Below are positions 3,001-63,374 of a stretch of 64,000 nt of DNA, piece by piece. This DNA comes from Candidatus Omnitrophota bacterium (GTDB lineage: Bacteria > Omnitrophota > Omnitrophia > Omnitrophales > Aquincolibacteriaceae). The number at the start of each line of letters is the position of its first letter. The first letter of the stretch is position 1. The notes under the pieces are model-generated. The model ran no database searches. It was not told the origin of the DNA and worked only from the letters and a program-made list of their open reading frames with translations. The stretch is taken from positions 109,955 to 173,954 of the forward strand of contig CAISGE010000002.1 of NCBI GenBank assembly GCA_903884815.1, written 5' to 3'. The position numbers were made by a program, and so were the translations under genes.

Positions 3001-3134
3001 GCCAAGGTTATCGCGGCGAGGACCTGAAGGCCAAGCTCGCCCCCCAGATTGCCGCGCTCGAGGCTTTGGATCAAGCCATCTATGATGCGGCCAAACCCGT
3101 CGAAAGAACGTTCAGGTTGGTCAGAATCAGTTGA
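6..3134 (+). CDS. Large secreted multidomain protein, 5'-truncated at the window edge. It has Fn3 and purple-acid-phosphatase-N-like repeats, an Ig-like domain and a C-terminal SGNH/GDSL-hydrolase-like domain.
   Basis: ORF runs from the window edge. Repeated Fn3 signatures (APSAPAGL...TYTFTVRAKD), an Ig-like block (YQWQKDGVDINGATNSSYLL...YRCIV) and an SGNH block I (WVFAGDSIT). Confidence 0.6.
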   Translation: MLLATVAGNVTTYTAKGLAPSTDYIFTVKAKDAASNYSDPSDPLTVRTAPDTQAPSAPAGLHYSKLKRETVTLSWSASTDDIGVTGYQIFENGTFLADVLSGTTYSVTGLTASTTYTFTVRAKDLAANASAFCTPVTFTTKSLTDDVADPVISIGLPSVTSAVATINWTTDEASDSQVEYRVKGTTAWMPTSTDPSLVTSHSVALTGLTAGVIYEYHVKSSDASGNLADSLDTQATPSILTTPSPSFGLDPVISAQPVGGQIQNGNDMTLGVAASVPAGSTVAYQWQKDGVDINGATNSSYLLSGASPALAGSYRCIVKRMSGTTVLSQVPSAAAAVTVSPLYPLIYGIAVAAKAASATITWGTSTASDSKVMYRAQGASAWETATSSDSLVKNHSVMLTGLMAGTLYEYRVNSTDSAYRSADEMKPAAFTTAPSASSTDTIVPTLKVASENINGTVTDIVKLSAYSNDADAPSIRFQLDGNNLTIGTPTNNTFDWDTTQTTNGAHVISAIATDSAGNTTTMFFNLRVMNYPIYSVYLERNATDVTVNWKTLSNSNTQVEYVRVEDNGSVSAIVSSQVPDDNTPTREHSIMLKGLEPGATYYYRVKSTNDAGTEVSSDYMFTTAQLPTTDAPQISSEGATPVSLEKDMTWVFAGDSITSLHEYNVYMEAYYQLRYPGMDFHFREAAGSGQQIIGFTNYGRYDYWAYSWDPDIVSASICNGPAVRDLVRGQLDDLAHNFIEGESGAIPVIFGTIPAPSGLSNWANEVFNDAYTSFAKDNGYLYTDDFGPLNDLWTANRNSANPIPFEEATPDHPGPTPQASIAYERLSQLGADPLVSSATINAAATGTATDPVVTAHNKTTIDDKSIYVSPGKDLIEFTRLDDRLPMAIPTDKSLLLQPDIVKLNQYMLQVNGLQAGTYKVYIDGQESATVTSGQLANGWNMAAMAMTQGPIHDQLQRVLDAIYAKEGLGPNPNTVPQTYGVQLHTGVNNFQNYASLYYSQGYRGEDLKAKLAPQIAALEALDQAIYDAAKPVERTFRLVRIS

Positions 3135-3243
3135 AGTCCGGGGCGCGCGCAGGCCCGCCGCAAGCTGGCGCTGCCGGAGTGAACGACGAAGACTTTGTCT
3201 TGATCTGGCGAATCGACCACAAAGACTAAGAGTCGCAAAAACG

Positions 3244-3315
3244 GTATGTGGCATGTCGTATGTCACATGAAATAGCGAAGCTGCGTTGTCTTTTCGACAT
3301 ACTACATACGACATA
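3244..3315. repeat. Imperfect inverted repeat of GTATGT motifs (GTATGTGGCATGTCGTATGT ... ACATACTACATACGACATAC) between convergent genes. Possibly a bidirectional terminator or protein-binding site.
   Basis: Read directly from the sequence. Lies between the stop codons of the + strand gene (3134) and the - strand gene (3379). Confidence 0.3.
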
Positions 3316-3378
3316 CGCTGTATGAGATAAATAAAGCAATGGCCCCAGGGTCTAGCAGCGTTCTCGAGAGCCCTGTCT

Positions 3379-49140: not shown

Positions 49141-49259
49141 TTTACACATCCTTTACATAGCGTGCTTAAGCCGGCTGCGGTTCCGCTCAGGTCGATAGCG
49201 GTGGGAAACACGTCCAGGCCTGTTCCGCGGCAGCGAATCTGTTTTACGTTCAATTTACA
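49141..49259 (+). promoter_or_regulatory. Two pairs of TTTACA/TTTACG direct repeats with 11-bp periodicity (Pho-box/PhoP-box-like) in the divergent phoB - giant-gene intergenic region.
   Basis: TTTACAcatccTTTACAtag at 49141-49160 and TTTACGttcaaTTTACAcc at 49243-49261, both read from the sequence. Confidence 0.25.
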
Positions 49260-49349
49260 CCATCATCAAGGGGTTTTTTCACGGCAAGGATAGCATTGTC
49301 ATAGAAAGAAAAACATTTTTAAAAAGAATTCAGGAAGAGGACTCGGTCG

Positions 49350-52300
49350 ATGAAAAACTTGAGAAGAAAATCCAGGGCTAAACCAAAGGAGATTTTCCAC
49401 TCGTCGGCGATCTCAAAACGGGCTCTCGAGTTTTTTCCACGAATCATCAGTTTTTTTCTGATCCTAGTTTTTGTATGGAGTCAGGTTCTTCCCGCGGATA
49501 CCGCGTGGGCCTTTCAGGAAATGACAGCTGGATTCATGAAAGCCCCGGCGTATGAAAGGATCGTTTTCCCGGATTTTGCCCGCGTGGAATGGGCGAATAC
49601 CTCTGTGAACGTGCCGCGCGGCGTGGTGTATCTTTTCCAGGACGCCCACACCTCTCTCTTGGCGCAGCAAAGAATTACCCAGACGCTTCTCGAACTCCGG
49701 AAGCAAGGCGCGATCGATGCCGTTCTTGTAGAAGGCGCTGCGGGCAGGTTGACCGCTGACCGCTTCGACGCCCACCCCGGGCTCAAAAAAACCCCCGAAC
49801 TGATTGAGAACCTCGAGAAGCAAGGCTATCTCCATGGAGCTGCGGCCTTCTATGTTTTACGTCCCGACACGACCGTGGAAGGTCTCGAAACACCGGGGCT
49901 TTACCGTGAAAACCGCCAGGCCTTCCGCGATGTCTTTGCATTCCGCGACAGGATCGATCCGGTGACGGAGCGCTTCAAAGTGGAATGGCAGCGTTGGCTC
50001 CAAGGTCACATGGATGAAGCGTCCCGGACTTTTTTCCTCAATGCCGCTTCCCGGCACACCGACGCTATCGAGCCGGCGTATTTCCAGCAGCTCCTCCGCA
50101 TGGCTTCCGAGAAAGCCGGGATCTCCTGGAGTATCGGGGATCAGGCCGAGTGGCCGCAGCTGATCCGGGTCCAGCGCATGCTTGAGATCCAACCCAGGCT
50201 CCGGATGGATGAAGCCCGCGCCGCATTCAAGGATCTGAGGAAAATCCTTCCGGGCTCATTCAAGGAAAAGCTCGATTTCATTCAAATGAGGATTGACGGA
50301 GGCCTCAAAGGAACGCTTGTACAGGAAGATGCCACCCTCTACCGTGATTTTGCAGCGCAGCTCATGACGGAACTTGTGAAGCAAAAGCGCCCGATGCTTT
50401 CTTATGGAGCTTTTTATGACTGGCTGGCCTGCGAGACATTCCGCCAGGAGATTCAGGCCGAGGATCTTGCCCTTGAGATCGAAAGGCTCGAGGACAGGAT
50501 CTGGAAGGCCTGGTTCCAGAACCCGGAAGACCGCGGTTGGATGGCGCTTGGAAGGCTCGGAGTTCTGCTTGCGAAGGCCAGCCGCCTGGAGCTTTCACGC
50601 GGAGAGGTTCGTCAATTCTCCAGGGCGCTCGAGGCCAAAGCCTTCGAAGCCTGGATCGGGAAGTTCCTGCCGGAGGAAAAAGAGACTTTTGAGAAATTCA
50701 GCAGCGGAGTTCTGTCCTTCTACAAATTAGCAGAAAGCCGTGAGCAGGGATTTGTCGCGCGCCTTTCGGAAACGCTCGAAGCATTATCCTCAAAGAATGC
50801 CAGAACTCCCCACGTGGCCGTCGTGACCGGCGGCTATCACAAGATCGGGCTCCTTAATAATCTGAAGTCCCAGGGGCTGCGTGTGGCGGTCGTGACTCCG
50901 GTATTAGAGCGGGTGGATCAGAACGTCGCCTATCTGTATAGAATGCTGGAAACCACGCCGGAAGCTTCGACGCTTTCGATAGTTCCTGCCGCGGTGGTAG
51001 GTTCCTCCGAATTGCGCGGGCTGGTAGGCGACGCGAATGCCGAGCGAAGCGAAAGGAGAGTGGCGAAGATCTTGGACGAAGCTTCTACCCCCGGGACTCC
51101 TGCTGCTACGGTTCGCAAAGCCGTTCCCACAGAGTTCCGGTGGAAATCCTGGATCCGCTGGATACTTACGGCTTTCATTCTGTTGTTTTCTTCTCGAGGC
51201 CTGAGTCAGGAAGCTCCGGCATCTCATAAGGCCGAACTGGCGGAGTTGAACCGGATCGCCGGACAGGGTTTTAACGTCAATAGGCCCCCGGTAGCGGAGC
51301 GGCCTGCCATGCTTTTTACTTCGGGACGACTCAATTCCCAGAGTTTTGTTTGGGGAAAAGGACTCGGTGCTGGCGGGAAGAACCTTGGAGAATTGGCGCG
51401 TATGAATCCGGAAGCGCGCCGGGTTGCGATCCAGGCACTTTTACAGAACGAGCTACGCGGCCGGTATCTGTCGATCGGATTGGATATTAAGACTTCTTCG
51501 AGCAGCACTAAAGCTACCGATCTGATCCATCCCAGCCCTCTCATGCTTGGATTTTTAAAACTGAGGGCGGCTACGGAGGCTTTGGAATGGCTTTTGTCGG
51601 CGGCTCCCCAGAATGCCGCGGATGAGGCCTACGCCCAAGGGTGGCGGCTGGAGTGGGAAGCGCAAGTCAAGAATCTCGAAGCTCAGGCCTATGCGACAGT
51701 GATCCAGATCCAGAAACTTGGCGCCAAGATCGATTTGAATACAAGAATCCTGAAATTGCTGGAGATATCCTTACCGCAGGCCCGGGTCCGGGAAGATCCC
51801 AAAAACAGGCTGGAAAGTCCCGGGACGGCTTTAAACGTCGAGATGAAGCTCCGTATGCTCCAGGTCAGAACAAGAGATCTGATGCGGCAGCGGCAGACCC
51901 TCCGGGCGGAGCTAGGATTTTTGCTCGGGGTTTCGGCTGAAGCGATCAGCCTTGACAGTGTGGGACGTCTCCCGGTTCCTCTTCTTCCTATCTCATGGAA
52001 AAACAATCAGCGGGAAAATTTTTCAAATGCCGTTCTCGGATCTATTCCGGCAAGTTTGCGTCTGAGGTCCCGTGAAATGTTGGCTCTCGGGGCCAGCGAG
52101 GCAGCGACGGCGGAAGGACGCCGGGGTTGGTTCCATCTTCCGCAGGTCAGGATCTCCGGTCTTACGGCGGAGCAAGCCGGTGGAGAGGCTGTCCCGGGAT
52201 GGACCCCGGAGCGAAGAAAAGCCAATTTGGAGGGGGCCGATCAAGAGGCAGCCTTGGAGGTTGCTCAGGCTCAAGTAGCGCTTCAAGCCAGAAAAGGACT

Positions 52301-55300
52301 CGATGGAATATGGATGGGGCTCGACCAGGAACAAGCCTCGGAAGAGATGCTCGCGAAGTACTGGGCGGATTGGCAACAGAACTCGCTCACATTTCATTCC
52401 TCCAATGCCGTGCAAATGAATCTCCTGGGGAATATGCAGGAACTCGGCGGGCAGCTGATCGATGCCCGGGTCAGCGTCAGCGAAACTGTCGTAGGGTTTG
52501 TGGGCCTGGGGATCCTGGACCCCGCTACACTCGGGGCCGCCCCGATCAGTCCGAATCTCTATTCCCGTGGTTCTTCGCCGCGGTCCGAGGTCCGGACATG
52601 GATCAAGACGGTTTTTCAGAAGCTGCCGCTCCTTTTCATGGCAGGATTCGCCTTGTTTCTGGCGTCTTGCGCGACGGGGCCCCGGAATGTTATGCCGCCT
52701 CACGCGGCCAAGATGGAGTGGAAAGCCCCCGCGGCCCCGCGGCACATGAATATCGAGAAGTATAAGGAGCCCGCGCTTCCCTTGACCGGGGGTGTTTCTG
52801 ACGGCTTTTATGGGGACTTGCTTCCGCCCAAAGCTGACGCCGAAACGAAAGCCAGGATCCTGGCATCAACACCCCTCGCGGAAACCTCAAAGCAGGCGAA
52901 GCAAGACGCTCCAAAAGAAATTAAAGTGGAGGGGCCCGGGAAAAACGCTTGGGATGCATCGGATACGGTGAAGACGGCTCCGGAGAAACCCGCCGCGGCT
53001 CCGAAGAGCGAAACGGCCGAAAATGCGGCCCTTATCAAGACCCTCCTCGATACCGCGAAGGTGCTGGATGCCTATCATTTCCAGCCCGGAGAAACGCGTG
53101 ACGCGCTGCTTCAGGGAGAGCCGATCAAGAAATTCCAGGACGCCCTCGTCGCTGCGGCGCCTCTCCTGGCAGGACTGGACTTCGTCGACGATCCACTCCA
53201 CACGAAAAATCGCGGCAGCTTTGGAAAATACACCTACGTCTGGCTGAAGAAGGTTATGGGAGACGCACCTCAGATTCTGGCGCTCACGAGCGGAACACCT
53301 GCTGAGACAAAGACGGCGCAAGCTCCCGCTCCGAAGGCGGAGGAGCATCTTTCAAAAGGGAAGACCCACGAAACAGAGGCTCAGCGCGATGAGGCCATTA
53401 ACAAGGCCGTCGCGGCGGCCGCTTCGCCCTCCACCGTGAATCCTCCGGCGATGCCTGAAAAAATCAAGACGGAAAAAACTTCTCCGGCCGGAATTCCCGC
53501 GGTGGCGGAAACTCCGACTCCATCCGCCCAGCGTAAAACGCCCCTGGCTCAAACGCCTCCCAAGGCGGAAGATCTTTCCGGGGATTCCGACAGTGATTTT
53601 GTTTTTGAGATGCCCGAAATAAAAATGCATTCGGCCAAACTGGGGGACGGCCCCTCCGGAGGCTTTGTCATCAAAGCTTTTTCGGCGGGAGAAGTCAGGA
53701 CAAGTGACAGCGGGGGGACGCAGACCTGGAGCATCGAAGATCCCATTCGGGCCAACGCGATCAAGAATCTTTTCGATCTTCTCAAAACCGATCTGGGGCA
53801 ATTGGCCGGCATGGATTCTCAATCCTGGGCTCCATATGAATTGCTTATGCAAAAGCTGAAAGCTGCAGAGGAGAAAATACAGCTGGCGCGCGCGCTGCAG
53901 AACGACGAAGAACTCGGGCATCTTGAAACGGGCCGCTTCGTGGAGACCGGGCATGTCTATGCCGAGGCGGGTTCGGTCAATGCCGGGGACCCTGTCATCG
54001 AGGCATTCCCGGATAGCGTGGTGGGCGTTGAAACAACGGTGCCTCTTTGGACGTTGATCGGCCACCAGCTCCATCCTCTGATCAATGAAAAGCCGGCGGC
54101 GATCCTTGGCTCCATCCAGGTGCTGAAGATTGATCCGACGGGGAACCCGGAGATCGATCCGAAAGGCGGCCCGACGGCCGTCATTCACTTTGCAGCTCAA
54201 CCCGCTGACGGGGGCTCGATTGAAAAAGATGCGGAATTCAACGTGGAATTGCGCTTTGCTAAAACCGGCGGGATCCAGGAAGGTGAGCCTGTTAATGTGG
54301 AGCTCGGCGATTCCGGCACGCTGACTCCGGCCGCAAGAGCCCAAAAGGATGTGCCCGCACCCGAGGATGGTTTTTTTAAGGTAGAAGGTCCCGGCCATTA
54401 TCAGGGAAATGTCCATCTGGCTTCCCGGCGCGACGGGGCCCAGGTGCTGGCGAATGAAAGCTGGCAGTCTCTTTTAAGCGACGCGCAGAGTCTTGTCAAC
54501 GGGGCCGCAGAGATGTTGCAGCGTATGAGCGATTCAGGCGTCGGGTCCGATAAAGTGCAGGCGTTTCAAAATCGTGTGCATGATCTTTCCCAGATTTTGA
54601 CAGGCATCGGACAATCGACTGTCAGGGGTGGCAACGGATTTTTTTCGCCGGACCCGCAGGCGACAGCCCTTCCCGCTGCAAAAGGCGCCTCTCTCGGAAC
54701 AGTTTATTCCGACAGCGTTTTTATAGGTTCGAAGACGGATCCGGGGGAGATGTTCATGGTTCCCAAGGGCTCCGCCAAGGTGGGCGATCTTGTGAGGGTC
54801 ACCGGAGGCGGCGAGGTATTAACGGGGAAAGTTTCGAAGATCATTGAGGAGATCCCTGCCGAGCCGAGAGATGCCTACAAGGATCTGGACGCGGTGGTTG
54901 TTGAGGTCGAGTCGCCGGCTTCGCAGATCATCGTCTGGCCGAAAGGATTGGACCTGCCGCTTTTCGGCGAAATTCTCCGGAAGATCCGCGAACAGTCTCA
55001 GGAAACCTCCCAATATTCTCCGGAAGGGGCAGGGTTCCATTGGATCGCGGGGCCTGCGGGATTCGGGGAGGAATGCTTGCTGGCCTCGGTGGGCAAGAAG
55101 GCTACGGGAACACCTTCAGTCGCACCTTCTATCGGACCCAGGTCCGCCCAGTTGGCTTCAACGGATTCAAGGCCTATCGTCACTCTTCCGGATCCTTCAA
55201 GCCCCCGAGTTCGCGAGATTACGGCGGAACACAGTCCCGGACGGCAGATTGAAAAGTTTAATAAAGAGAAAGGATCCATGACGGACCCGGAATTCAGGGA

Positions 55301-58300
55301 GCTATTTGAACGGGGCTCGGTGCCGCTGGTCTTTGAAATGAGCCGGTTCTTGCTTGCTGAAAAACATGATTGGGCTCCGGCGATGGACTCGCTCCGTGCG
55401 CTAAGCGGACATGCCGGGAAAGACGGTGCCGATGTCCAGCGGGCGGGTGCCATTGAACTAGCGATCGTTTCGGTTCTCTATCAGCGGCCGGCGAATCTTT
55501 CTTCGGATCTCATGCGTCTCAAAGTACAATCCCGGGAATATCCGGAAGCCCAGGCGTTCATCGATTCCGTTTTCCTGTATATTCTTCAAAAAGAGGGGAT
55601 TCATTCCCAGGCATCACAAGCTTTCCTGGGTTCCGGATATTTCACTCTCGAGGATATGAAGCCCGTTGCGCGCGCAGCGCGGCATTCCGCCGATCCTCTT
55701 TATAAAACCTTGGGAGCGCAGCTGGATACCTTCCGGAGGCATGAAGCTGCCGCGCGGGAAATTTTAGATCTTAAACTTACGCCGGATGTTGCGGCTGCCA
55801 CGAGCAGCGTGGATCCCACCAATCCTTTCAAAAACCTTTCTCCTGAAAAGAAACGCGCCGCGCATTTTACCCAGGCGGTCCGGAGGGACGATGTCCTTAT
55901 GCTTCAATCGGGCCGGCTGACCTCCGACGCGGGATTGGGCGCTGCCCAGATCGATCCCTCGACGGCCGCTCAGTTGAAGCAGACAAACACAAACGAAGCC
56001 TCCTCCGGTTCGGAATTCAAATTATATCCGGGCAGTTCCGCGACGGGCGCGACGCTTGGCGAATGGGACACCGTGGGATTATTGCAACGGCAGGAAATGG
56101 TCCGCGAATGGGCGTCCCAGGGCCGGTTTTATGATCTCACACAAGCCTTGCGAGGGCTTGGTTCCAGGCAGCCGGTCCTGACAGACATGATCCTCAAGAC
56201 GCTTTCAGCTTCCCCGGAAGGCCGGCTGGCGCTCTATGCCGCAGTTTTAAACGGAACCGTCACCCTTCCGTTCAGTCAGGCCTACCTTTCCAATTTGATC
56301 AAAGATGCCGCGCAGTTCACGGATCTGAATCAGTCCGGGACATCGGAGGAAAAGAAAGACGGAACTCTTTCCCCTCGCTCCCCCAGGTTCATTTACATAG
56401 AGGCATTGCTGCAATCGCTTAAAAAGAACAGTGCGGATAGTGCGAACAGTGCGGGCAGCGCGGACCGTAATGCCGTCTTGAGAGCTTTGGCGGGACTTGT
56501 TCCGCACGGTCATTCCCTTAGAGCTTTGGAAGGAAATCTGAAGGGTGTTTCCGCGGATACAGACCGTATCCTCCAAGGGGTTCCGGAAGAAGACCGCGAA
56601 GGACTACGAAAGGCTGCCATAAATGAAGAAGGGCGCCGCGCGGTGAGGGCCGGAGCCAATGCCGTTTTTAAAAGCAAACATTCCGAAGCTTTGGGCGAGG
56701 CGCGTCTCGGATCGATACAGACGGATCTTGGCATCTTGCTTGCGGATCTTGAGCTTTCGCGTGCTGGGGTTGGGTCTGTGACGGCTTCGTCGGCCGGAGA
56801 GTTCATCGAAACGTCCCTTTCGAAATGGAGAGCTTCCGAGAGTCTCAAAGACGATGTCCGGAAAGCGTCGGGGGAAGCGTTGGGATACATGAACGGGCAG
56901 GCGCGTCCGGACTTTGACCCCAAGAAAGATTACTACATGGGGGCTAATTTTATGGCCTGGCTCAGCTGGGGATTGGGCGGTCTCGGATTTTATTTCGTCG
57001 GATGGCTTATGAACATGTACCGGTTAGCGCACAAGCGCGAGAAATTGCTGGATAGTCGCGTCGAGAAGGGCCTTCCTGTGCACTCTTTCCCGTCGCTTGA
57101 GGAGTGGCGCCTGGAATTTCAAGGGCAGATCAACTCCTCTGAATTTGTCGGGTATGAAAACCTCAAGGACGCACTTCAGCGGTGGATGAATATGCTGGCG
57201 ACGGAAGGCCCTTTGTCCGCGGAAAATCTGGCAGGGATGCGCGTGGAAGCCGAGCGGATCTCCAGGGACCATAAACTGAAACTTGGTGAAACCATGCTTC
57301 GTCGTTACTGGCACAATGACCGCATCCATAACAGGAACATGATGCATATGGTCGCAGAGCTTTCGATGCTGACTATGGAGCGGTTGATTCATGAGGGAGC
57401 GGGTCGTTCCCGGAATTCGGATTTCATTTTTCACAGAGATCTTGCGCTCAAGATGCTTTTCCTGAAAAGGCTTCTTTTCACGATGAAAAATCTCCGATCG
57501 AACCGGGCTCTGAATGTTATTGAACCGCTTCTAGTTAATGACAAGGAGATCGACCGGATCTCAAGAAAATTACTCAAACATGAAAGAAGAGGCTGGAAAT
57601 ATATCGTTCGCCCCCAATGGGCGCTCAATTGGATGAGAGGAAAACATAATGAGCTCGCTTTTCAGTCCCTGGATGAATACGCGAGGGTTGCAGAGCGGCT
57701 GGGGGAACGGGTGGATCTTCCGGGGCTGAGAACGATTCTCGGGGAGGTCCTGGATACAGAGAAGCCTATGCAGGAGACCCGGCTGACGACAGATGACAAT
57801 GATGCTTTTAATGTTCACCGAAGGCTGAAATCAAGAATGCTTAATCTTGTGTCCCGCATTATGGGGATTCCCGGACTTTTGGCTTTGGGGATCAGTATTC
57901 ATACCCTGGGCTTCGGAGTTTTGACCTGCATGTTGTTCGTGGTGAACATCGGTCTTTTATTGCCCTGGATCAACTATCTCGCTCACGTCATTGGCAATAT
58001 GAGCGGTGCGGAAGGGCGTCACTTCACCGAAGGGATCCTGAAGCTTCAAAGACTGAAGATGGCATTTGACGCTGCTTCGCCGGAGGAAGATGACGCTACC
58101 GAAGTCGATGGCGATGAGTTTCTTCCTGACAATATTTTCCAGTTTGAACCGGATCCGTCAGGAATGGTCCCGGCGCTGGCCCGGGTCCAAAATTCATCCG
58201 AAACCGGAGATCCTGGCCGCGCAGAATCCCGCGTGCCGGTCACGCTTATGGCCAATTCGATCAAGACGGAAATGAAAGGGAAAAAAGAATATTGGGTGGC

Positions 58301-59435
58301 GGTTTTCTCCAGAGCTGGCCAGGAAGAGGCCTTTGACGCATTAATGAGAGGGATCGGCTCTTTTGCCTTGAAGGAGCTTTCCGCTTCCGCCGGCGGTGGG
58401 GAAGATGTGAAAAAGGGGAAAGAAAACCGCCTTCGCGAAACTCTTGCGGCTGTGAAAGAACAGGGAAATGTTCGTCTTCATATAGACAAGGAGAGCGGGC
58501 GCCTTGCGGTGGCTGACCTTGGCATAATGCCGTTAAGAGAAAAAAAGCGGGCGCTCATTTTTGGTTTGGGGATCGCCACACAACTCTATGGACAGGTCAC
58601 TAGCGGCGGCACTGTCTTTAACCACTTTCCCGGTTTCTCCGGCCTCGCGTTTCAAGTGGATGCCGAAAGTTCCCGGGTCATCTTCAGCGATCTCCCCATT
58701 GCCGAAAAAACTGCCCTTCCTTCGGGAAACGCCAAGCCCTCGCCAAAGCCGGCGCTCACCGCGGCAGTGGTGGCCGCGACGTTGATTATCTTTCTCGGAA
58801 TATTGCCGTTGGGGGCAGGAGCTTATGCCGCAACGCTTGCCAGGAAAGCCTTCGAAGCGCGAGAAGCCCTGCTCCAGCCGGACCTAAATGCTTTGGTAGC
58901 CCGCGCGCCGAAAGAATCTTTGGCGTTGCTGGCCCCCAAAGCGGATGCGAACTACACGCTCTTTCTGGAGGCGGCTCTGCTGAAGGGGCAGGAGACGATC
59001 GAGCCACTGACTCGTTTGCCTTACAAAGTGGTAGTGGTTTTCAATGAGGTGCAGAAAAAAGAATACATGAATTTCGTTGCTCGGCTTGGCGGCACCAAAA
59101 AGGGATCGTTTGAAATCAGGCTAGGGAAAGTCGAAGAAGTCGTTCGCTTGAGCGTCGGGCGCCCTGTCCAGGAAGACAATGAAGAAAAAATGCAGTTCGC
59201 GTTCGCGGGCTCTGACGAAAAGGTGCTTCGCCATCTAAGGCCGTATGTCGGCAATTTGATTCACGTCGACGGCGAGACCCTCGTTCCGGGAGAATGGCTT
59301 CTGGACGCGTTCCAGAGCCTGTATGTCTTCAATTTAGGGAAAATCCGGAAGGATTTTATCTGGTCGATCGATACCGCGTTGCCGATTCTGCTGGAACAGA
59401 CCCTGGCGATCCAGCGCATCGCTCATGCGGCGTAA
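49350..59435 (+). CDS. Giant protein (3361 aa) of unknown function with an N-terminal signal anchor and at least 6 further internal TM segments.
   Basis: An uninterrupted 10,086-nt ORF in DNA of roughly 56% GC. RBS AGGAAGAGGA. Hydrophobic segments (FFLILVFVW, WIRWILTAFILLF, LLFMAGFALFLASC, FMAWLSWGLGGLGFYFVGWLM, LLALGISIHTLGFGVLTCMLFVVNIGLLLPWI, LTAAVVAATLIIFLGILPLGAGAYAA). I recognise no domain in it. Confidence 0.8.
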   Translation: MKNLRRKSRAKPKEIFHSSAISKRALEFFPRIISFFLILVFVWSQVLPADTAWAFQEMTAGFMKAPAYERIVFPDFARVEWANTSVNVPRGVVYLFQDAHTSLLAQQRITQTLLELRKQGAIDAVLVEGAAGRLTADRFDAHPGLKKTPELIENLEKQGYLHGAAAFYVLRPDTTVEGLETPGLYRENRQAFRDVFAFRDRIDPVTERFKVEWQRWLQGHMDEASRTFFLNAASRHTDAIEPAYFQQLLRMASEKAGISWSIGDQAEWPQLIRVQRMLEIQPRLRMDEARAAFKDLRKILPGSFKEKLDFIQMRIDGGLKGTLVQEDATLYRDFAAQLMTELVKQKRPMLSYGAFYDWLACETFRQEIQAEDLALEIERLEDRIWKAWFQNPEDRGWMALGRLGVLLAKASRLELSRGEVRQFSRALEAKAFEAWIGKFLPEEKETFEKFSSGVLSFYKLAESREQGFVARLSETLEALSSKNARTPHVAVVTGGYHKIGLLNNLKSQGLRVAVVTPVLERVDQNVAYLYRMLETTPEASTLSIVPAAVVGSSELRGLVGDANAERSERRVAKILDEASTPGTPAATVRKAVPTEFRWKSWIRWILTAFILLFSSRGLSQEAPASHKAELAELNRIAGQGFNVNRPPVAERPAMLFTSGRLNSQSFVWGKGLGAGGKNLGELARMNPEARRVAIQALLQNELRGRYLSIGLDIKTSSSSTKATDLIHPSPLMLGFLKLRAATEALEWLLSAAPQNAADEAYAQGWRLEWEAQVKNLEAQAYATVIQIQKLGAKIDLNTRILKLLEISLPQARVREDPKNRLESPGTALNVEMKLRMLQVRTRDLMRQRQTLRAELGFLLGVSAEAISLDSVGRLPVPLLPISWKNNQRENFSNAVLGSIPASLRLRSREMLALGASEAATAEGRRGWFHLPQVRISGLTAEQAGGEAVPGWTPERRKANLEGADQEAALEVAQAQVALQARKGLDGIWMGLDQEQASEEMLAKYWADWQQNSLTFHSSNAVQMNLLGNMQELGGQLIDARVSVSETVVGFVGLGILDPATLGAAPISPNLYSRGSSPRSEVRTWIKTVFQKLPLLFMAGFALFLASCATGPRNVMPPHAAKMEWKAPAAPRHMNIEKYKEPALPLTGGVSDGFYGDLLPPKADAETKARILASTPLAETSKQAKQDAPKEIKVEGPGKNAWDASDTVKTAPEKPAAAPKSETAENAALIKTLLDTAKVLDAYHFQPGETRDALLQGEPIKKFQDALVAAAPLLAGLDFVDDPLHTKNRGSFGKYTYVWLKKVMGDAPQILALTSGTPAETKTAQAPAPKAEEHLSKGKTHETEAQRDEAINKAVAAAASPSTVNPPAMPEKIKTEKTSPAGIPAVAETPTPSAQRKTPLAQTPPKAEDLSGDSDSDFVFEMPEIKMHSAKLGDGPSGGFVIKAFSAGEVRTSDSGGTQTWSIEDPIRANAIKNLFDLLKTDLGQLAGMDSQSWAPYELLMQKLKAAEEKIQLARALQNDEELGHLETGRFVETGHVYAEAGSVNAGDPVIEAFPDSVVGVETTVPLWTLIGHQLHPLINEKPAAILGSIQVLKIDPTGNPEIDPKGGPTAVIHFAAQPADGGSIEKDAEFNVELRFAKTGGIQEGEPVNVELGDSGTLTPAARAQKDVPAPEDGFFKVEGPGHYQGNVHLASRRDGAQVLANESWQSLLSDAQSLVNGAAEMLQRMSDSGVGSDKVQAFQNRVHDLSQILTGIGQSTVRGGNGFFSPDPQATALPAAKGASLGTVYSDSVFIGSKTDPGEMFMVPKGSAKVGDLVRVTGGGEVLTGKVSKIIEEIPAEPRDAYKDLDAVVVEVESPASQIIVWPKGLDLPLFGEILRKIREQSQETSQYSPEGAGFHWIAGPAGFGEECLLASVGKKATGTPSVAPSIGPRSAQLASTDSRPIVTLPDPSSPRVREITAEHSPGRQIEKFNKEKGSMTDPEFRELFERGSVPLVFEMSRFLLAEKHDWAPAMDSLRALSGHAGKDGADVQRAGAIELAIVSVLYQRPANLSSDLMRLKVQSREYPEAQAFIDSVFLYILQKEGIHSQASQAFLGSGYFTLEDMKPVARAARHSADPLYKTLGAQLDTFRRHEAAAREILDLKLTPDVAAATSSVDPTNPFKNLSPEKKRAAHFTQAVRRDDVLMLQSGRLTSDAGLGAAQIDPSTAAQLKQTNTNEASSGSEFKLYPGSSATGATLGEWDTVGLLQRQEMVREWASQGRFYDLTQALRGLGSRQPVLTDMILKTLSASPEGRLALYAAVLNGTVTLPFSQAYLSNLIKDAAQFTDLNQSGTSEEKKDGTLSPRSPRFIYIEALLQSLKKNSADSANSAGSADRNAVLRALAGLVPHGHSLRALEGNLKGVSADTDRILQGVPEEDREGLRKAAINEEGRRAVRAGANAVFKSKHSEALGEARLGSIQTDLGILLADLELSRAGVGSVTASSAGEFIETSLSKWRASESLKDDVRKASGEALGYMNGQARPDFDPKKDYYMGANFMAWLSWGLGGLGFYFVGWLMNMYRLAHKREKLLDSRVEKGLPVHSFPSLEEWRLEFQGQINSSEFVGYENLKDALQRWMNMLATEGPLSAENLAGMRVEAERISRDHKLKLGETMLRRYWHNDRIHNRNMMHMVAELSMLTMERLIHEGAGRSRNSDFIFHRDLALKMLFLKRLLFTMKNLRSNRALNVIEPLLVNDKEIDRISRKLLKHERRGWKYIVRPQWALNWMRGKHNELAFQSLDEYARVAERLGERVDLPGLRTILGEVLDTEKPMQETRLTTDDNDAFNVHRRLKSRMLNLVSRIMGIPGLLALGISIHTLGFGVLTCMLFVVNIGLLLPWINYLAHVIGNMSGAEGRHFTEGILKLQRLKMAFDAASPEEDDATEVDGDEFLPDNIFQFEPDPSGMVPALARVQNSSETGDPGRAESRVPVTLMANSIKTEMKGKKEYWVAVFSRAGQEEAFDALMRGIGSFALKELSASAGGGEDVKKGKENRLRETLAAVKEQGNVRLHIDKESGRLAVADLGIMPLREKKRALIFGLGIATQLYGQVTSGGTVFNHFPGFSGLAFQVDAESSRVIFSDLPIAEKTALPSGNAKPSPKPALTAAVVAATLIIFLGILPLGAGAYAATLARKAFEAREALLQPDLNALVARAPKESLALLAPKADANYTLFLEAALLKGQETIEPLTRLPYKVVVVFNEVQKKEYMNFVARLGGTKKGSFEIRLGKVEEVVRLSVGRPVQEDNEEKMQFAFAGSDEKVLRHLRPYVGNLIHVDGETLVPGEWLLDAFQSLYVFNLGKIRKDFIWSIDTALPILLEQTLAIQRIAHAA

Positions 59436-59495: not shown

Positions 59496-59720
59496 ATGAG
59501 CGAAAATGAAAAGATGGTCGTTTTGTTGAGGAATCAAGTGGAGCTGCTCGAAGATCTCGTGGAGGAACTCGAAAAGAAAGAAGCTCTCAGTGTTGAGGAC
59601 TTCTCTTATTGCGAGAGCCGCACAGATGAGATCACCAAGAATCTCCTGAGGGTCAGGCGCTGGGCCTTGGCCGAGATGATCTGCGGAACTCAGTGGCGCC
59701 AGCCCGTCGCAGCGGCGTAG
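59496..59720 (+). CDS. Small hypothetical protein (74 aa), coiled-coil.
   Basis: RBS AAAGGAG upstream. No recognised domain. Confidence 0.4.
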   Translation: MSENEKMVVLLRNQVELLEDLVEELEKKEALSVEDFSYCESRTDEITKNLLRVRRWALAEMICGTQWRQPVAAA

Positions 59721-59834: not shown

Positions 59835-62537
59835 CTAGCGGGGGTGAATTGTTCGGAGGTGTTTGGTGAGGGTGGTTTTTTTGAGCATCGGGTCGTCCAG
59901 GGGTTCCTGGGTCAGGAGCACTGAACTGAGCTCGAACTCTCCGGCGGCGTCGGACACGGCCAGATAGTTGAAGGTTTGTCCCGTGTCCTTGGGAATCTTG
60001 ATCTCGAAGACAGACCAGTCGCTATCCGTGGAAAGCACGACGGGCACTTTCGTCGTGAGCAGCTGATTATCCTCGTATTTGAATTCGATAAAAAAATTGT
60101 TGTTCTTTCCCGACACGTTCCTGGCCCGCAGGTAGATGTAGTTGAATTTTTTTAAATTCGTGTAAGGGATATACCCGCCCCGCCATCCTTGGCCTCCGGA
60201 GAACCGGTAAGAACCCTTTCCCGGATATTTTAAGAACGGAATGCTGCCGTGGCTTAAGCGCCAGTAGCGGATCACTTCGAATTCTTCCGGTCTTTGGAGA
60301 ATATTATCGGTGGGAGCCATCTCGGCTTCCTTGAAGGGATCGGTTCGGGTGAGGAGGATCTTTTCGAGCCGGATTTCTCCCTCCCGTCCGCCGCGCACCA
60401 TGGCGTTGAGAAGATACCTCGGGTCGTGAAGGACCACCGAAATGTAATTCAGGGGCTTGTCGTCCGACTCCGGGATGGGTTTGATGGGCAGTATGAATGT
60501 CTTGGAAAGTCCGTCTTTGGAAAGGACTCCAGGTTGCACGGTATTGACCACGACCGTGGCGAGCGTGATGTCATCGCTTTTGAGTTCGATCTCAAAAATG
60601 CTCGGCGAACTCCGGACGGGGAGCGTGACGGATAAATAACGCATATCCGCGATCCGGACGGCTTTGTCAATATAGGTGCCCCGGAATGCCCACTGGTCAA
60701 AATAGGAGGCGTAGGCGGGGATGTTGTAATAAAAAGTGAAGGGTTTGCCCGGGGCGATATCCATTTCCAGGGTCGGGCGGTCGATAGAATAGACGTTTTT
60801 CCCGTGAAGATGCCCGCTTTGAAGATGTTCCGTGATATTGAAAAAAGGACCCGGGTCGGGCGGCTTTTGAAAGTGGACTTCGAAGGTTCCGGACGTGGGA
60901 GCCGGAAAAGGCTGTGTCGGGAAATAAAGCGGCACGCCCTTTCTTTCGGCGATTATCTGTCGGTATTTAGAATGCAGAAGTTCGGCCAGCTTGATGTCCA
61001 TCGGAATACCTGAATGAGGCACGGTGCGCCGGTGAAGATACTCTTTAATCTCGTCGAGAACGCCGCCGCTTGCGGCCAAAAGGGTCATGCCCTTGGCGTC
61101 CGCCGTGAAAATGTCGGCATAGCCATCGCGCCCTACGGACTCCAGAGCTCCGAACGGAGTAACCATCTTCGGGACTTGATAGAAACGTTCCATCCATGCG
61201 GCTCCCACCGTGGGATTGATCAGCATGCCCATGGAGGTCGCGAAAAAAACCGCCACATCCTCCCGGTCGACCGCCTCTTCGGCGATCGAAGGAAGGCCCA
61301 TCTGGCGATAGATCCCCTTGGGATCATACGCGGTGCTGGAAAAACCCGGGAGTCCAAGGCGGCGGGCATGGTCGGCCTGGGCGTAAAGATAATTTTGATA
61401 AAGCGGGGCGAGGGCGGTTTCCATGAAAGGAATGAAAGCGAGTGCCCAGCTTTCGTGAAAGGAAGCGCGGAAACCTTTCAGGACAGTGATCTTTTCTCCG
61501 GATCCGGTCAGGTATTCGGTGGTCGGAATCCTGAGGCGCTGCCAGGCTTCTTCGGGGATCTGGCCGTGGAGGACGCCCCAGAGCACGGCGAGGGTTCCCT
61601 CGAACATGTCATTCAGATAATAGGTGTCGTCGCCGGTCCACTGCCCGGTTTCAGGATCAAACTGGATCGTTCCGTGGAGCACGCCTTTTTTAGCGTTATA
61701 GAATTTCCTGTAATTTTGGGCGTCCAAGATGATCTGCGCCTCTCTTGCGAGCTCCCGGTCGGGACGGTCCGAGGCGTTCTCAAAAGCGGCGACGATCGCG
61801 GCGAGAGCCCAGGTCATCTGGCCGTTATCAAGCGACGGGATCTTCGTGTTTGCGGGGGCAATGGTTCCGTTCGGGCGGATATCGACCCAAGGAAAGAAGC
61901 CGGCCTGTTCGGGATATTTTTTCTGATAGACCCGGAGGACGTGAAGGCTCAGGTTCAAAAGCCTGCGTGCTTCTTTCGGGGTGATGGAGAGTTTTTGGAA
62001 CCCCTTTTTCTTTTGGATGATCTTCAGAAGAAAAGGGATAGAAAGAGATAGCTTCGAGGCGGCCGTGTAGTGGCCTACCTCGCTTAGCATATTCTCGTCC
62101 AGGCGTATCCGGATATGGTCGTAAGGCAGTCCGGTCTTAGCGTCCAGTCCCGTGCCGGGCTGAAAGTAAAGGGCTTCTGTGGGGATCAGTGTCCCGTTCA
62201 GGAACGAGGCCAAAGCCTCCGGGATTTCTTCCTGTCCTGGATAGCGAAAGAATTCGGGAGGCTCCTGGAGCCGCGCTTCCGGAGAGACCGTTGTTATCGG
62301 GCCCCGCACGACGCGTGCGGCGTCCCGGAGAAGGTCGCGAGGCTCGGGCTGAGTTTTTTGTGGCGGCAGGGGGATCTCCTGAGGGAGCTCAGTCGCGGTG
62401 AAGACGGGTGAAGAGCCTGGATCTGCCGACAGGGGATTCGCGGTCAAAAGAACCAGCGAACACAGTGTTGTCAGGAATACCGACCGGCGCTTTCCGTTCA
62501 CGCGCGGGCTCAGGCATTCTTTCATATAGAGGATCAT
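59835..62537 (-). CDS. Large secreted protein (900 aa) with an N-terminal glucoamylase/DUF3131-like domain and a C-terminal beta-rich region.
   Basis: A signal peptide (…LCSLVLLTANPLSA). The block SLDNGQMTWALAAIVAAFENA resembles the 18619 protein and the glycoamylase family. Confidence 0.5.
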   Translation of the reverse strand: MILYMKECLSPRVNGKRRSVFLTTLCSLVLLTANPLSADPGSSPVFTATELPQEIPLPPQKTQPEPRDLLRDAARVVRGPITTVSPEARLQEPPEFFRYPGQEEIPEALASFLNGTLIPTEALYFQPGTGLDAKTGLPYDHIRIRLDENMLSEVGHYTAASKLSLSIPFLLKIIQKKKGFQKLSITPKEARRLLNLSLHVLRVYQKKYPEQAGFFPWVDIRPNGTIAPANTKIPSLDNGQMTWALAAIVAAFENASDRPDRELAREAQIILDAQNYRKFYNAKKGVLHGTIQFDPETGQWTGDDTYYLNDMFEGTLAVLWGVLHGQIPEEAWQRLRIPTTEYLTGSGEKITVLKGFRASFHESWALAFIPFMETALAPLYQNYLYAQADHARRLGLPGFSSTAYDPKGIYRQMGLPSIAEEAVDREDVAVFFATSMGMLINPTVGAAWMERFYQVPKMVTPFGALESVGRDGYADIFTADAKGMTLLAASGGVLDEIKEYLHRRTVPHSGIPMDIKLAELLHSKYRQIIAERKGVPLYFPTQPFPAPTSGTFEVHFQKPPDPGPFFNITEHLQSGHLHGKNVYSIDRPTLEMDIAPGKPFTFYYNIPAYASYFDQWAFRGTYIDKAVRIADMRYLSVTLPVRSSPSIFEIELKSDDITLATVVVNTVQPGVLSKDGLSKTFILPIKPIPESDDKPLNYISVVLHDPRYLLNAMVRGGREGEIRLEKILLTRTDPFKEAEMAPTDNILQRPEEFEVIRYWRLSHGSIPFLKYPGKGSYRFSGGQGWRGGYIPYTNLKKFNYIYLRARNVSGKNNNFFIEFKYEDNQLLTTKVPVVLSTDSDWSVFEIKIPKDTGQTFNYLAVSDAAGEFELSSVLLTQEPLDDPMLKKTTLTKHLRTIHPR

Positions 62538-63218: not shown

Positions 63219-63374
63219 GAGCCTTTGGCGCGCGAAGTTTTTTATAACTTGTTTGTTTCAAAAGATTTAAAGGTGTTTATCCGAGGGCCAGTTTACCTAG
63301 GTTTTACATGAATTCTCGCGGGATTCGGATTAGAATACGGCCTTAAAGCGTCTCTTCAGGCGTAGGAGAAATCT

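What the first reader, a model, noticed from the sequence alone, without database searches (positions are those of the whole stretch)
49350..59435. Single 10-kb ORF encoding a 3361-aa multi-TM protein with no recognisable domains
An uninterrupted 10,086-nt reading frame has a good RBS. All antisense and alternative frames are short. The product has an N-terminal signal anchor and at least 6 further hydrophobic helices spread along its length. It has a long Pro/Ala/Lys/Glu-rich low-complexity region (about nt 52700-53600) and, to my eye, no enzymatic signature motif. Giant genes of this kind are a hallmark of some uncultivated, host-associated or episymbiotic lineages. This one sits divergently from phoBR with Pho-box-like repeats upstream.
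Basis: seen in the sequence. Interest (0 to 1): 0.7.

Follow-up and report, generated by a model that had tools for sequence, protein, structure and literature searches.

The report
Giant modular envelope polyprotein with TolC-like domain
The 10-kb gene is real and belongs to a small family of giant proteins from uncultured Omnitrophota-type bacteria; it strings together a protease/esterase-like domain, a TolC-like outer-membrane channel domain and several membrane modules, separated by internal signal-peptide-like segments and a recurring R-S-E-x-R motif that may mark where such giant proteins are cut.

Summary
ORF 49350-59435 (3361 aa) is intact and 100% identical at DNA level in three other assemblies. 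The exact protein is on at least 18 contigs. Colinear orthologues exist (3984 aa at 54% identity; at least 3508 aa; 2721 aa).

"No recognisable domains" is true only for HMM searches. A structure model gives two fold assignments:

The TolC-like module follows a signal-peptide-like segment and precedes a conserved lipobox (LASC, Cys1107). Next come a Pro/Ala/Lys-rich linker and a weakly AcrA-like adaptor region. The rest holds four TM helices and unclassified domains.

A peptide motif, R-[SAT]-E-x-R, marks module boundaries across the family: 61 found against 2.7 expected. It was replicated on nine independent loci (56 in giant ORFs, 2 in other ORFs).

Two TTTACA-N5-TTTACA Pho-box-like sites lie upstream, and synteny with phoBR is conserved.

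My best reading is a Pho-controlled, tripartite-exporter-like envelope machine encoded as one polyprotein. Processing and function are inferred, not shown.

The parts
49141..49157 (+). Pho-box-like direct repeat 1 (TTTACAcatccTTTACA) in the phoB/giant intergenic region
   Evidence: exact match to TTTACA-N5-TTTACA. The window holds 3 matches with at most 1 mismatch, against 0.16 expected.
49243..49259 (+). Pho-box-like direct repeat 2 (TTTACGttcaaTTTACA), 91-107 nt upstream of the ATG
49333..49341 (+). Shine-Dalgarno-like GGAAGAGGA, 8 nt before the start codon
   Evidence: sequence read directly
49350..59435 (+). Giant ORF, 3361 aa
49350..49511 (+). aa 1-54: N-terminal signal peptide or anchor. 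Basic n-region, h-region aa 32-47, A-W-A at aa 52-54.
   Evidence: The same layout appears in P0004 (ASA) and P0008 (VQA).
49611..50954 (+). aa ~88-535: conserved N-terminal domain with the Tiki/TraB/EreA/ChaN fold. Motifs QDAH (H100), VEGA (E128) and GGYH (H497), with a long helical insert at aa 182-482.
51045..51059 (+). aa 566-570: RSERR, boundary motif 1
51147..51224 (+). aa ~600-625: internal signal-peptide-like hydrophobic segment (H2) with small-residue sites at its end in the orthologues
   Evidence: End sequences: giant GLS|QE, P0004 GWS|QS, P0008 ASA|AD, L004 ISA|QE, L007 ATA|ED.
51225..52574 (+). aa ~626-1075: TolC-like outer-membrane-factor (OMF) domain. Long helices at aa 756-815, 826-859, 953-1014 and 1020-1052.
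52581..52595 (+). aa 1078-1082: RSEVR, boundary motif 2
   Evidence: The position is conserved in P0004, P0008, L004b, L007 and P0006.
52608..52670 (+). aa 1087-1107: internal lipoprotein-type signal segment (H3) ending in the lipobox L-A-S-C (Cys1107)
   Evidence: P0004 has LTSC and P0008 has AVGC. More distant orthologues have AxA|Q-type ends instead: AMA|QQ in L007 and AWA|QQ in P0006.
52671..53624 (+). aa 1108-1425: Pro/Ala/Lys/Thr/Glu-rich low-complexity linker, variable in length among the orthologues
   Evidence: about 40 aa in L004, about 175 aa in P0008
53625..55049 (+). aa 1426-1900: beta-rich region with weak similarity to periplasmic adaptor (membrane-fusion) proteins
   Evidence: hhalign against AcrA/CusB/MacA/EmrA: P = 0.0053, score 30.1, colinear over the lipoyl, hairpin and barrel parts. 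Block-shuffled null 18.8 +/- 2.3, with 0 of 60 reaching the observed score. Weak HAS-barrel hit at aa 1792-1841. PDB profile and Pfam searches were negative.
55227..56909 (+). aa ~1960-2520: region conserved in the orthologues, fold unknown. Helical in the modelled part (aa 2391-2520).
56943..57020 (+). aa 2532-2557: TM4, followed by a basic flank (RLAHKREK)
57072..57824 (+). aa ~2575-2825: Arg/His-rich helical domain, the best-modelled part of the C-terminal half (pLDDT 80-92), with no significant structural match
57858..57992 (+). aa 2837-2881: TM5-TM6 hairpin
58218..58232 (+). aa 2957-2961: RAESR, boundary motif 3. It aligns with RRSEAR of P0004, which follows that protein's extra ~600-aa module.
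58242..58724 (+). aa ~2965-3125: alpha+beta domain, 78% identical to P0004, unclassified
58755..58841 (+). aa 3136-3164: TM7
58842..59432 (+). aa 3165-3361: conserved C-terminal alpha/beta (Rossmann-like) domain, shared with other large proteins (P0006, P0009, P0010, P0011, L007)
   Evidence: Foldseek gives only generic Rossmann matches with E above 0.6.
59496..59720 (+). 74-aa ORF with its own RBS (AAAGGAG). A 74-aa ORF is called at the same position after the orthologue P0004.
63292..63308 (+). Third Pho-box-like repeat, upstream of the ROK-Ppx-Ppk genes

Best explanation
The gene encodes a modular envelope polyprotein of a family whose named relatives are all Omnitrophota.

Order of parts:
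1. Signal peptide.
2. Tiki/TraB/EreA-like hydrolase-type domain.
3. Second signal-peptide-like segment.
4. TolC-like outer-membrane-factor domain.
5. Lipoprotein-type signal segment with a lipobox.
6. Long flexible linker.
7. AcrA-like adaptor region (weak evidence).
8. An inner-membrane part with four TM helices and three unclassified soluble domains.

These are the parts list of a tripartite (TolC, adaptor, inner-membrane) export machine written as one ORF.

I infer that the chain is cut into separate secretory pre-proteins, or at least released at its internal signal and lipobox sites. I infer that the R-[SAT]-E-x-R motifs at the module junctions (aa 566, 1078, 2957) are the recognition or processing marks, possibly read by the N-terminal Tiki-like domain. 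I also infer that the gene is switched on by PhoB under phosphate limitation.

Shown: the reality of the gene, the family, the two folds, the signal-like segments and lipobox, the enrichment and junction placement of the motif, and the Pho-box-like sites with conserved synteny.

Inferred: adaptor identity, cleavage, assembly into a channel, the exported substrate, and Pho control.
For: Gene reality. Colinear orthologues.

TolC-like fold:
- The first 44 Foldseek PDB hits are all OMFs, and their alignments run about 340-490 columns against targets of about 350-490 residues.

N-terminal fold:
- H100, E128 and H497 are invariant.
- The H...(28 aa)...E spacing resembles E. coli TraB-family YbaP, where it is H41...E67.

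Internal signal-like segments with conserved small-residue or lipobox ends.

Adaptor-like region: hhalign P = 0.0053, with 0 of 60 block shuffles reaching the score.

Motif:
- 61 found against 2.7 expected in 40,671 aa of family proteins, and none in 26,773 aa of other window ORFs.
- Codons vary, so the motif is selected at the peptide level.
- Replicated on 9 new loci: 56 in 18,319 aa of giant ORFs against 2 in 33,613 aa of other ORFs.
- It brackets Pfam domains. In L019 the motifs at aa 1789 and 1934 flank a receiver domain at 1807-1928. APH in P0002 (1204-1434) lies between the motifs at 1148 and 1513.

Family members mix periplasm-type and cytoplasm-type modules in one ORF: PG_binding_1 and Response_reg in L026, APH in P0002, NUDIX in P0010.

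Pho. The phoU-pho4-phoR-phoB<>giant-74aa...GH162-HisPhos-ROK order is conserved around P0004.
Against: - The structure models are low-confidence overall (mean pLDDT 54.6 and 59.7).
- Sequence profiles do not detect TolC. Pfam OEP is absent, hhalign against TolC/CusC gives P = 0.28, and the internal-repeat test gives P = 0.17.
- The OMF beta-barrel strands are not confidently modelled.
- The adaptor assignment rests on one weak profile comparison. Pfam and the PDB profile search were negative.
- No ABC, RND or MFS transporter domain is present, so the 'engine' of a tripartite pump is missing or novel.
- There is no experimental evidence for cleavage.
- If the N-terminal domain is exported, it sits on the wrong side of the membrane to free internal signal peptides in the cytoplasm.
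- The giant itself carries only 3 motif copies.
- The Pho boxes are consensus matches only.
Confidence: 0.45

Rival explanations
1. It is an unprocessed single-chain, multi-pass inner-membrane scaffold. All seven hydrophobic segments are ordinary TM helices. The TolC-like and other helical parts act as long structural struts, for example an envelope tether or coat as proposed for larger Omnitrophota giants. The RSExR motifs are linker or interaction motifs rather than cut sites.
For: - 94% of catalogued Omnitrophota long proteins are predicted to carry TM helices or a signal peptide, and their processing is unknown (paper 10.64898/2026.06.07.730766; 10.1101/2023.11.21.568195).
- The positive flank after TM4 fits an out-to-in helix.
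- No cleavage has been shown.
Against: - An alternating topology would place a TolC-like domain in the cytoplasm between H2 and H3.
- H2 and H3 have signal-peptide features: a basic n-region followed by an AxA-type or lipobox end. These are conserved across orthologues of 23-54% identity, which an ordinary TM helix has no need for.
Confidence: 0.3
2. It is a cell-surface adhesin or prey-attack protein, like the 'archaeovorin' or dockerin-type giants. In this reading it is used for attachment to hosts and degradation of their cell walls.
For: - The relatives are Omnitrophota.
- It has an N-terminal signal and a long flexible linker.
- A GH162 glucanase gene lies downstream.
Against: - It has none of the expected domains: Ig/FN3, dockerin, TSP3, lectin, GH, GT, SecA-DEAD or C39.
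- It has no tandem repeats.
- It is only 3.4 kaa, and its neighbourhood is phosphate metabolism rather than T2SS or carbohydrate import.
Confidence: 0.1
3. The fold matches are false positives caused by long coiled-coil helices in a low-confidence model. On this view the protein is an orphan with no relation to TolC or Tiki-type proteins.
For: - Mean pLDDT is 54.6.
- Foldseek TM-scores are only 0.33-0.48 with large rmsd.
- Sequence profile tests against TolC are not significant.
Against: - 44 of the top 44 Foldseek hits belong to one family.
- The domain has the size of an OMF (about 450 aa) and follows a signal-like segment.
Confidence: 0.12
4. It is an assembly or sequencing artefact that merges several genes into one frame.
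For: One distant relative (L004/L005) has the homologous region split into two ORFs.
Against: - The 10,086-nt sequence is identical in independent assemblies from several samples and sources.
- The orthologues are also uninterrupted: 3984 aa and at least 3508 aa.
- The split in L004 falls in a G5 run within GTGGGGGTGGG, which looks like a single-base indel.
Confidence: 0.02

Closest known systems
Tripartite efflux / type I secretion assemblies (OMF TolC/OprM/CusC + periplasmic adaptor AcrA/MacA/EmrA/HlyD + inner-membrane transporter)
   Same: - An OMF-like fold of the right size sits behind a signal-like segment.
- The next module starts with a lipobox, as AcrA does, and is weakly AcrA-like in the order lipoyl, hairpin, barrel.
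- A membrane-embedded C-terminal part follows.
   Different: - All parts are in one 3361-aa ORF instead of separate genes.
- There is no Pfam OEP or HlyD match.
- No ABC, RND or MFS engine is recognisable.
- An extra Tiki/TraB-like domain sits in front, with RSExR motifs at the junctions.
- The OMF beta-barrel is not verified.
Omnitrophota giant / very long membrane-anchored proteins (West-Roberts et al. 2023 bioRxiv 10.1101/2023.11.21.568195; Seymour et al. 2023 PMC10066038; Nielsen & Lui 2026 bioRxiv 10.64898/2026.06.07.730766)
   Same: - The named relatives are Omnitrophota MAGs.
- It has an N-terminal signal, scattered TM helices and is largely Pfam-dark.
- A putative hydrolase or peptidase-type domain sits near the N-terminus.
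- Family members carry mixed enzyme modules: APH, NUDIX, receiver, PG-binding.
   Different: - It is about 3.4 kaa, far below the 10-147 kaa proteins those papers catalogue.
- It has none of their hallmark domains (SecA-DEAD, C39, S8, dockerin, GT/GH).
- In term searches of the first and third of these papers I found no mention of a TolC-like module or a boundary motif. The first states that cleavage points are unknown.
Tiki/TraB/PrgY/GumN - EreA/ChaN superfamily (Wnt protease Tiki, MARTX RRSP endopeptidase, erythromycin esterases, ChaN)
   Same: - The invariant His...Glu...His set in QDAH / VEGA / GGYH resembles the GxxH...E...GxxH pattern visible in E. coli YbaP.
   Different: - No Pfam model reaches threshold.
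- It has a ~300-aa helical insert.
- It is always the leader domain of a giant ORF.
- Its activity (protease, esterase or only binding) is unknown.
Bacterial polyproteins and motif-directed endoproteolysis (gingipain polyproteins; Mycoplasma hyopneumoniae adhesins cut at S/T-X-F|X-D/E). This comparison is from my own knowledge and was not tested here.
   Same: One ORF gives several functional pieces, and a short linear motif in inter-domain linkers marks the junctions.
   Different: Cleavage is not demonstrated here, the motif (R-[SAT]-E-x-R) is different, and the modules carry their own signal-peptide-like segments.

Membership tests
Outer membrane factor (TolC/OprM/CusC, Pfam OEP) | Alpha-helical tunnel protomer built from long helical hairpins | tested here: met
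   [not shown]
Outer membrane factor (TolC/OprM/CusC, Pfam OEP) | Four-stranded contribution to a 12-stranded outer-membrane beta-barrel | tested here: inconclusive
   The regions where the hairpins should lie (aa ~705-725 and 926-952) have pLDDT below 50, and only 3-residue strands are predicted.
Outer membrane factor (TolC/OprM/CusC, Pfam OEP) | Sequence-profile match (Pfam OEP) and a detectable internal two-fold repeat | tested here: not met
   No OEP hit at E up to 1. hhalign against TolC/CusC gives P = 0.28. The comparison of the two halves gives P = 0.17.
Outer membrane factor (TolC/OprM/CusC, Pfam OEP) | Stand-alone secreted protein of ~450-500 aa with an N-terminal signal peptide | tested here: not met
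   The domain is about 450 aa and follows a signal-like segment, but it is embedded at aa 626-1075 of a 3361-aa ORF.
Periplasmic adaptor / membrane-fusion protein (AcrA, MacA, EmrA, HlyD) | Lipoyl, alpha-hairpin and beta-barrel modules in order | tested here: inconclusive
   hhalign P = 0.0053, colinear over 184 columns. The block-shuffle null has a maximum of 26.8 against 30.1 observed. Pfam and the PDB profile search found nothing. This region was not modelled.
Periplasmic adaptor / membrane-fusion protein (AcrA, MacA, EmrA, HlyD) | Membrane anchoring by a lipidated Cys or a TM helix at the N-terminus | tested here: met
   The lipobox L-A-S-C (Cys1107) comes directly before the module. It is conserved as LTSC in P0004 and AVGC in P0008. 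Lipidation itself was not tested.
Tiki/TraB/PrgY/GumN - EreA/ChaN superfamily | Characteristic alpha/beta fold | tested here: met
   [not shown]
Tiki/TraB/PrgY/GumN - EreA/ChaN superfamily | Conserved His (first strand-loop), Glu (about 26-28 residues later) and C-terminal GxxH | tested here: met
   H100, E128 and H497 are conserved in all aligned family members. E. coli YbaP has H41, E67 and GALH251. The residue equivalence was judged by eye, not by structural superposition.
Tiki/TraB/PrgY/GumN - EreA/ChaN superfamily | Pfam model match (PF01963 / PF04187 / PF05139) | tested here: not met
   Only one of 8 members hits PF04187, at E = 0.11. hhalign against the single YbaP sequence was not significant.
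Omnitrophota 'archaeovorin' / dockerin-type giant proteins | More than 10-30 kaa with SecA-DEAD, C39/S8, GT/GH/methyltransferase/NUDIX or dockerin/TSP3 content | tested here: not met
   The protein has 3361 aa and none of these Pfam domains.
RTX toxins / repeat adhesins | Tandem Ca-binding nonapeptide or Ig-like repeats | tested here: not met
   No Pfam hit. The only tandem repeat is a 9-bp x 4.2 array.
Pho regulon member | PhoB-type binding site (direct repeats in an 11-bp register) at the promoter, and phosphate-dependent expression | tested here: inconclusive
   Two TTTACA-N5-TTTACA sites lie upstream. The window holds 3 such sites against 0.16 expected, all beside phosphate-related genes. 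Synteny with phoBR is conserved. Binding and expression cannot be tested here.

The most novel reading that the evidence does not exclude
R-[SAT]-E-x-R is the processing code of a class of Omnitrophota giant proteins. On this reading these ORFs are true polyproteins that replace operons. Their modules, here a TolC-like channel, a lipoprotein adaptor and inner-membrane parts, are released at these motifs and at internal signal peptides. The conserved N-terminal Tiki/TraB-like domain may be the dedicated protease. This 3.4-kaa protein would be the smallest tractable model for that biology.
Probability: 0.3. Interest if true: 0.85.

Novelty: new variant of a known kind. Interest (0 to 1): 0.68.

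Why it matters
Giant ORFs of Omnitrophota are a recognised puzzle. The literature says it is unknown whether they act as one chain or are cut, and that no cleavage points are known (10.1101/2023.11.21.568195).

This gene offers three things:
- It is small, fully assembled and conserved, and two of its modules can now be named.
- It gives an example of an outer-membrane-channel fold inside a much larger ORF, framed by signal-peptide and lipobox features.
- It reveals a family-wide junction motif that yields concrete, testable cut-site predictions.

If processing is confirmed, it would show a bacterial strategy of encoding a multi-compartment envelope machine as a polyprotein. It would also give a rule for splitting far larger giant proteins into their functional units.

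The conserved phoBR linkage adds a testable physiological trigger, namely phosphate limitation.

Tried and rejected
- Full-length homology search timed out.
- Word-based searches with aa 1101-2250 and aa 2251-3361 found nothing. Only the exhaustive phmmer run found relatives, 9 cluster representatives in 1.84 billion.
- Pfam, NCBIfam and PDB sequence searches on the whole protein were negative.
- PDB profile searches with the N-terminal alignment and the adaptor-region alignment were negative.
- Pfam on every member of those two alignments gave only a PF04187 hint at E = 0.11 and a sub-threshold HAS-barrel match.
- Foldseek of the C-terminal model gave only generic Rossmann and 14-3-3-like matches with E above 0.6. 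That half remains unclassified.
- hhalign of the TolC-like region against E. coli TolC/CusC, the half-against-half repeat test, and hhalign of the N-terminal domain against YbaP were all non-significant.
- A literature search for the motif strings was useless, because 'RSEAR' matches 'research'.
- Cluster look-up returned no organism names, so the phylum of the window itself is inferred from relatives only.
- Rejected: assembly artefact; RTX or repeat adhesin; a DNA-level repeat as the origin of the motif, because codon usage varies; internal translation starts, because no Met precedes the hydrophobic core of H2 or H3.
Full report

The ORF 49350-59435 (+) starts with ATG and runs 3361 codons without a stop. 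GGAAGAGGA sits 8 nt upstream of the ATG.

It is not an assembly artefact:
- The identical protein is recorded on at least 18 contigs read, from 34 blocks of JGI, ENA, NCBI and Logan data.
- The three loci that could be fetched (L001-L003, from different samples) are 100% identical in DNA over all 10,086 nt.
- A cluster mate differs by one residue.

Hydrophobic segments lie at aa 24-52, ~601-615, 1087-1111, 2532-2557, 2837-2881 (two helices) and 3136-3164. The Pro/Ala/Lys/Thr/Glu-rich stretch is aa ~1108-1425.

Pfam gives only a sub-threshold HAS-barrel hit. NCBIfam and PDB sequence searches are empty. No adhesin-type tandem repeats exist.

The one inaccuracy concerns alternative frames. Antisense ORFs of 354 and 240 aa overlap the low-complexity part, and nothing suggests they are genes.

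**2. Relatives and lineage**

Word-based searches found relatives only for the first 1100 aa (two searches were empty). An exhaustive phmmer run of aa 2251-3361 against 1.84 billion cluster representatives found just 9 proteins.

Orthologues:
- P0004 (3984 aa) is colinear over the whole length at 54% identity. The N-terminal domain and the last ~360 aa are about 80% identical, and the middle is 22-57% identical. P0004 also has an extra ~600-aa module inserted near giant aa 2830-2960.
- P0008 (2721 aa), the L007 ORF (at least 3508 aa) and the L004 pair of ORFs are further colinear orthologues.
- The L004 split falls in a G5 run and looks like an indel.

A scan of GTDB species genomes with the N-terminal domain returned six loci. 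Five are Candidatus Omnitrophota MAGs and one is an unnamed MAG. At the four that run far enough (L007, L008, L009, L011), the domain opens an ORF that is still open after 2689-3975 aa, at the end of the fetched stretch. Nine further metagenome loci show the same pattern.

The window's organism is therefore probably an Omnitrophota-type bacterium. I could not get a direct taxonomic label.

Giant, TM-rich, mostly unannotated ORFs are a known feature of that phylum. This protein is far smaller than those described, and it lacks their hallmark domains.

**3. What the parts are**

An AlphaFold2 model of aa 1-1110 (5-sequence MSA, mean pLDDT 54.6) has usable confidence in aa 90-515 and in four long helices between aa 756 and 1052.

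TolC-like domain:
- The first 44 Foldseek PDB hits are all OMFs.
- So aa ~626-1075 has a TolC-like fold. The beta-barrel hairpins are not confidently modelled, and sequence profiles do not see the relationship.

N-terminal domain:
- This places aa ~90-520 in the Tiki/TraB/EreA/ChaN superfamily.
- The family alignment shows invariant H100 (QDAH), E128 (VEGA) and H497 (GGYH). The pattern and spacing resemble E. coli TraB-family YbaP.
- Members of this superfamily include proteases (Tiki, RRSP), esterases and a haem binder (my own knowledge). The domain may therefore be catalytic, but its activity is unknown.

Adaptor-like region:
- aa 1426-1900 gave a weak but colinear profile match to AcrA/CusB/MacA/EmrA: P = 0.0053, score 30.1.
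- Cross-controls gave P = 0.4-0.87, and the reversed query scored 15.1.
- 60 block shuffles averaged 18.8 +/- 2.3 with a maximum of 26.8.
- I treat the adaptor identity as plausible, not established.

C-terminal half:
- A second model (aa 2391-3361, mean pLDDT 59.7) shows a confident helical domain at aa ~2580-2720 and a Rossmann-like C-terminal domain at aa ~3200-3350.
- Neither has a significant structural match.
- The C-terminal TM helix plus domain recurs in other large proteins: P0006, P0009, NUDIX-containing P0010, and P0011.

**4. Internal signal peptides**

H2 (aa ~601-615) and H3 (aa 1087-1111) each have three signal-peptide features: a basic upstream flank, a short hydrophobic core, and a small-residue end.
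- H2 ends in ASA|AD (P0008), ATA|ED (L007), ISA|QE (L004), GWS|QS (P0004) and GLS|QE (giant).
- H3 ends in a lipobox in the three closest proteins: LASC in the giant, LTSC in P0004 and AVGC in P0008.
- H3 ends in AMA|QQ in L007 and AWA|QQ in P0006.

The layout is therefore SP, Tiki-like domain, SP, TolC-like domain, lipoprotein SP, linker, adaptor-like region. Each element is exactly what the stand-alone proteins carry. TM4 with its basic C-flank would then return the chain to the cytoplasm.

An unprocessed alternating topology would leave the TolC-like domain in the cytoplasm. This is the main argument for processing, and it is an inference.

**5. A junction motif (found in passing, then followed up)**

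R-S-E-x-R, more generally R-[SAT]-E-x-R, is strongly over-represented in this family:
- 61 copies against 2.7 expected in 40,671 aa of family proteins.
- 0 copies in 26,773 aa of other ORFs of the window.
- Codons differ between copies, so the constraint is on the peptide.
- The flanks are Ala/Ser/Pro/Gly/Glu-rich, like linkers.

In the giant the three copies sit at module junctions:
- aa 566, between the N-terminal domain and H2.
- aa 1078, thirteen residues before H3.
- aa 2957, aligned with RRSEAR of P0004, which follows that protein's extra module.

The result was replicated on nine independent metagenome loci: 56 motifs in 18,319 aa of giant ORFs against 2 in 33,613 aa of all other ORFs.

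The motifs bracket known domains rather than lying inside them:
- In L019, motifs at aa 1789 and 1934 flank a receiver domain at 1807-1928.
- In L026, PG_binding_1 (1447-1497) lies between motifs at 1382 and 1813, and a receiver domain (2313-2406) lies between motifs at 2087 and 2445.
- In P0002, APH (1204-1434) lies between motifs at 1148 and 1513.

Term searches of two Omnitrophota giant-protein preprints found no such motif and no TolC-like module. One of them states that cleavage points are unknown.

**6. Context**

The order PhoU_div, PHO4, phoR, phoB <> giant, 74-aa ORF, GH162 (-), His_Phos, ROK, Ppx, Ppk is conserved around P0004. That locus has an extra 1695-aa NUDIX protein, and the part shown ends within ROK.

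TTTACA-N5-TTTACA, direct repeats in an 11-bp register as in PhoB/PhoP boxes, occurs three times in 64 kb against 0.16 expected. Two copies lie in the phoB/giant intergenic region and one lies upstream of ROK-Ppx-Ppk. Pho control is therefore a reasonable but untested inference.

**7. Mechanism proposed**

Shown: a real, conserved gene; the two fold assignments; the signal and lipobox features; the enrichment and placement of the motif; the Pho-type sites and conserved synteny.

Inferred:
- The ORF is a polyprotein for an envelope-spanning, tripartite-exporter-like assembly.
- Its modules are separated at internal signal peptides and/or RSExR sites.
- The Tiki-like domain may be the processing enzyme or a secreted or periplasmic hydrolase.
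- The machine is induced by phosphate limitation.

Weak points:
- Model confidence is low.
- No recognisable transporter engine is present.
- The adaptor is unverified.
- There is an unresolved sidedness problem. An exported N-terminal protease could not free cytoplasmic pre-proteins.

The main rival is an unprocessed multi-pass scaffold.

**8. Verdict**

It is best filed as a new variant within the known phenomenon of Omnitrophota giant membrane proteins, with an unexpected tripartite-pump-like parts list.

The junction motif and internal signal peptides make the open question of whether, and where, these giants are cut directly testable on a protein of manageable size.

Noticed in passing
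window 51045-51059, 52581-52595, 58218-58232; also L007-L012, L019-L026 giant ORFs: The peptide motif R-[SAT]-E-x-R is enriched by more than an order of magnitude in the giant ORFs that carry this N-terminal domain. It is absent from neighbouring ordinary ORFs, is encoded with varying codons, and brackets Pfam domains. It is a candidate polyprotein junction or cleavage code.
   Followed up: yes
window 63292-63308: A third TTTACA-N5-TTTACA Pho-box-like repeat lies just upstream of the ROK-Ppx-Ppk genes. This suggests the motif defines a local Pho regulon.
   Followed up: partly
window 59496-59720: A 74-aa helical ORF with a strong RBS sits directly after the giant gene. A 74-aa ORF is called at the same position after the orthologue P0004. 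It has no Pfam hit and ends in -AAA.
   Followed up: partly
L004 3727-3779 (and L005): In a 43%-identical relative the homologous gene is split by a frame change inside GTGGGGGTGGG (a G5 run). This may be a sequencing indel or a real, possibly phase-variable, frameshift.
   Followed up: partly
P0004 aa ~3005-3576; P0009 aa 1-640; P0004 contig gene 22431-27518: The closest orthologue carries an extra ~600-aa module with no Pfam hit, which also appears in P0009. Its genome has an additional 1695-aa NUDIX protein downstream of the giant gene. P0010 (1797 aa), another NUDIX-containing protein, ends in the same TM + C-terminal domain as the giant. Together these suggest module shuffling between large proteins.
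   Followed up: partly
window 59418-59432 and C-termini of P0004, P0006, P0009, P0010, P0011: All proteins that share the C-terminal domain end in small residues (-HAA, -RSA, -QAA, -VSA). This is reminiscent of C-terminal protease or degron tags.
   Followed up: no
window 53352-54416 (-) and 52023-52745 (-): Antisense ORFs of 354 and 240 aa lie inside the low-complexity linker-coding region. They are probably a by-product of codon composition.
   Followed up: no
window 56428-56465: A small 9-bp x 4.2 tandem repeat encodes an (A/S)-(D/N/G)-S-type stretch (NSADSANSAGSAD).
   Followed up: no
L026 9848-17983; L019 9956-21304: Family members combine a periplasm-type domain (PG_binding_1) and a cytoplasm-type receiver domain in one ORF that starts with the same N-terminal domain.
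   Followed up: partly
window 6-3134 (+); 59835-62537 (-): There is a 1042-aa FN3 / purple-acid-phosphatase-N-domain protein at the start of the window. A 900-aa GH162-family protein (PF26157 in the precomputed table, no hit in my scan) lies convergent to the giant gene.
   Followed up: no
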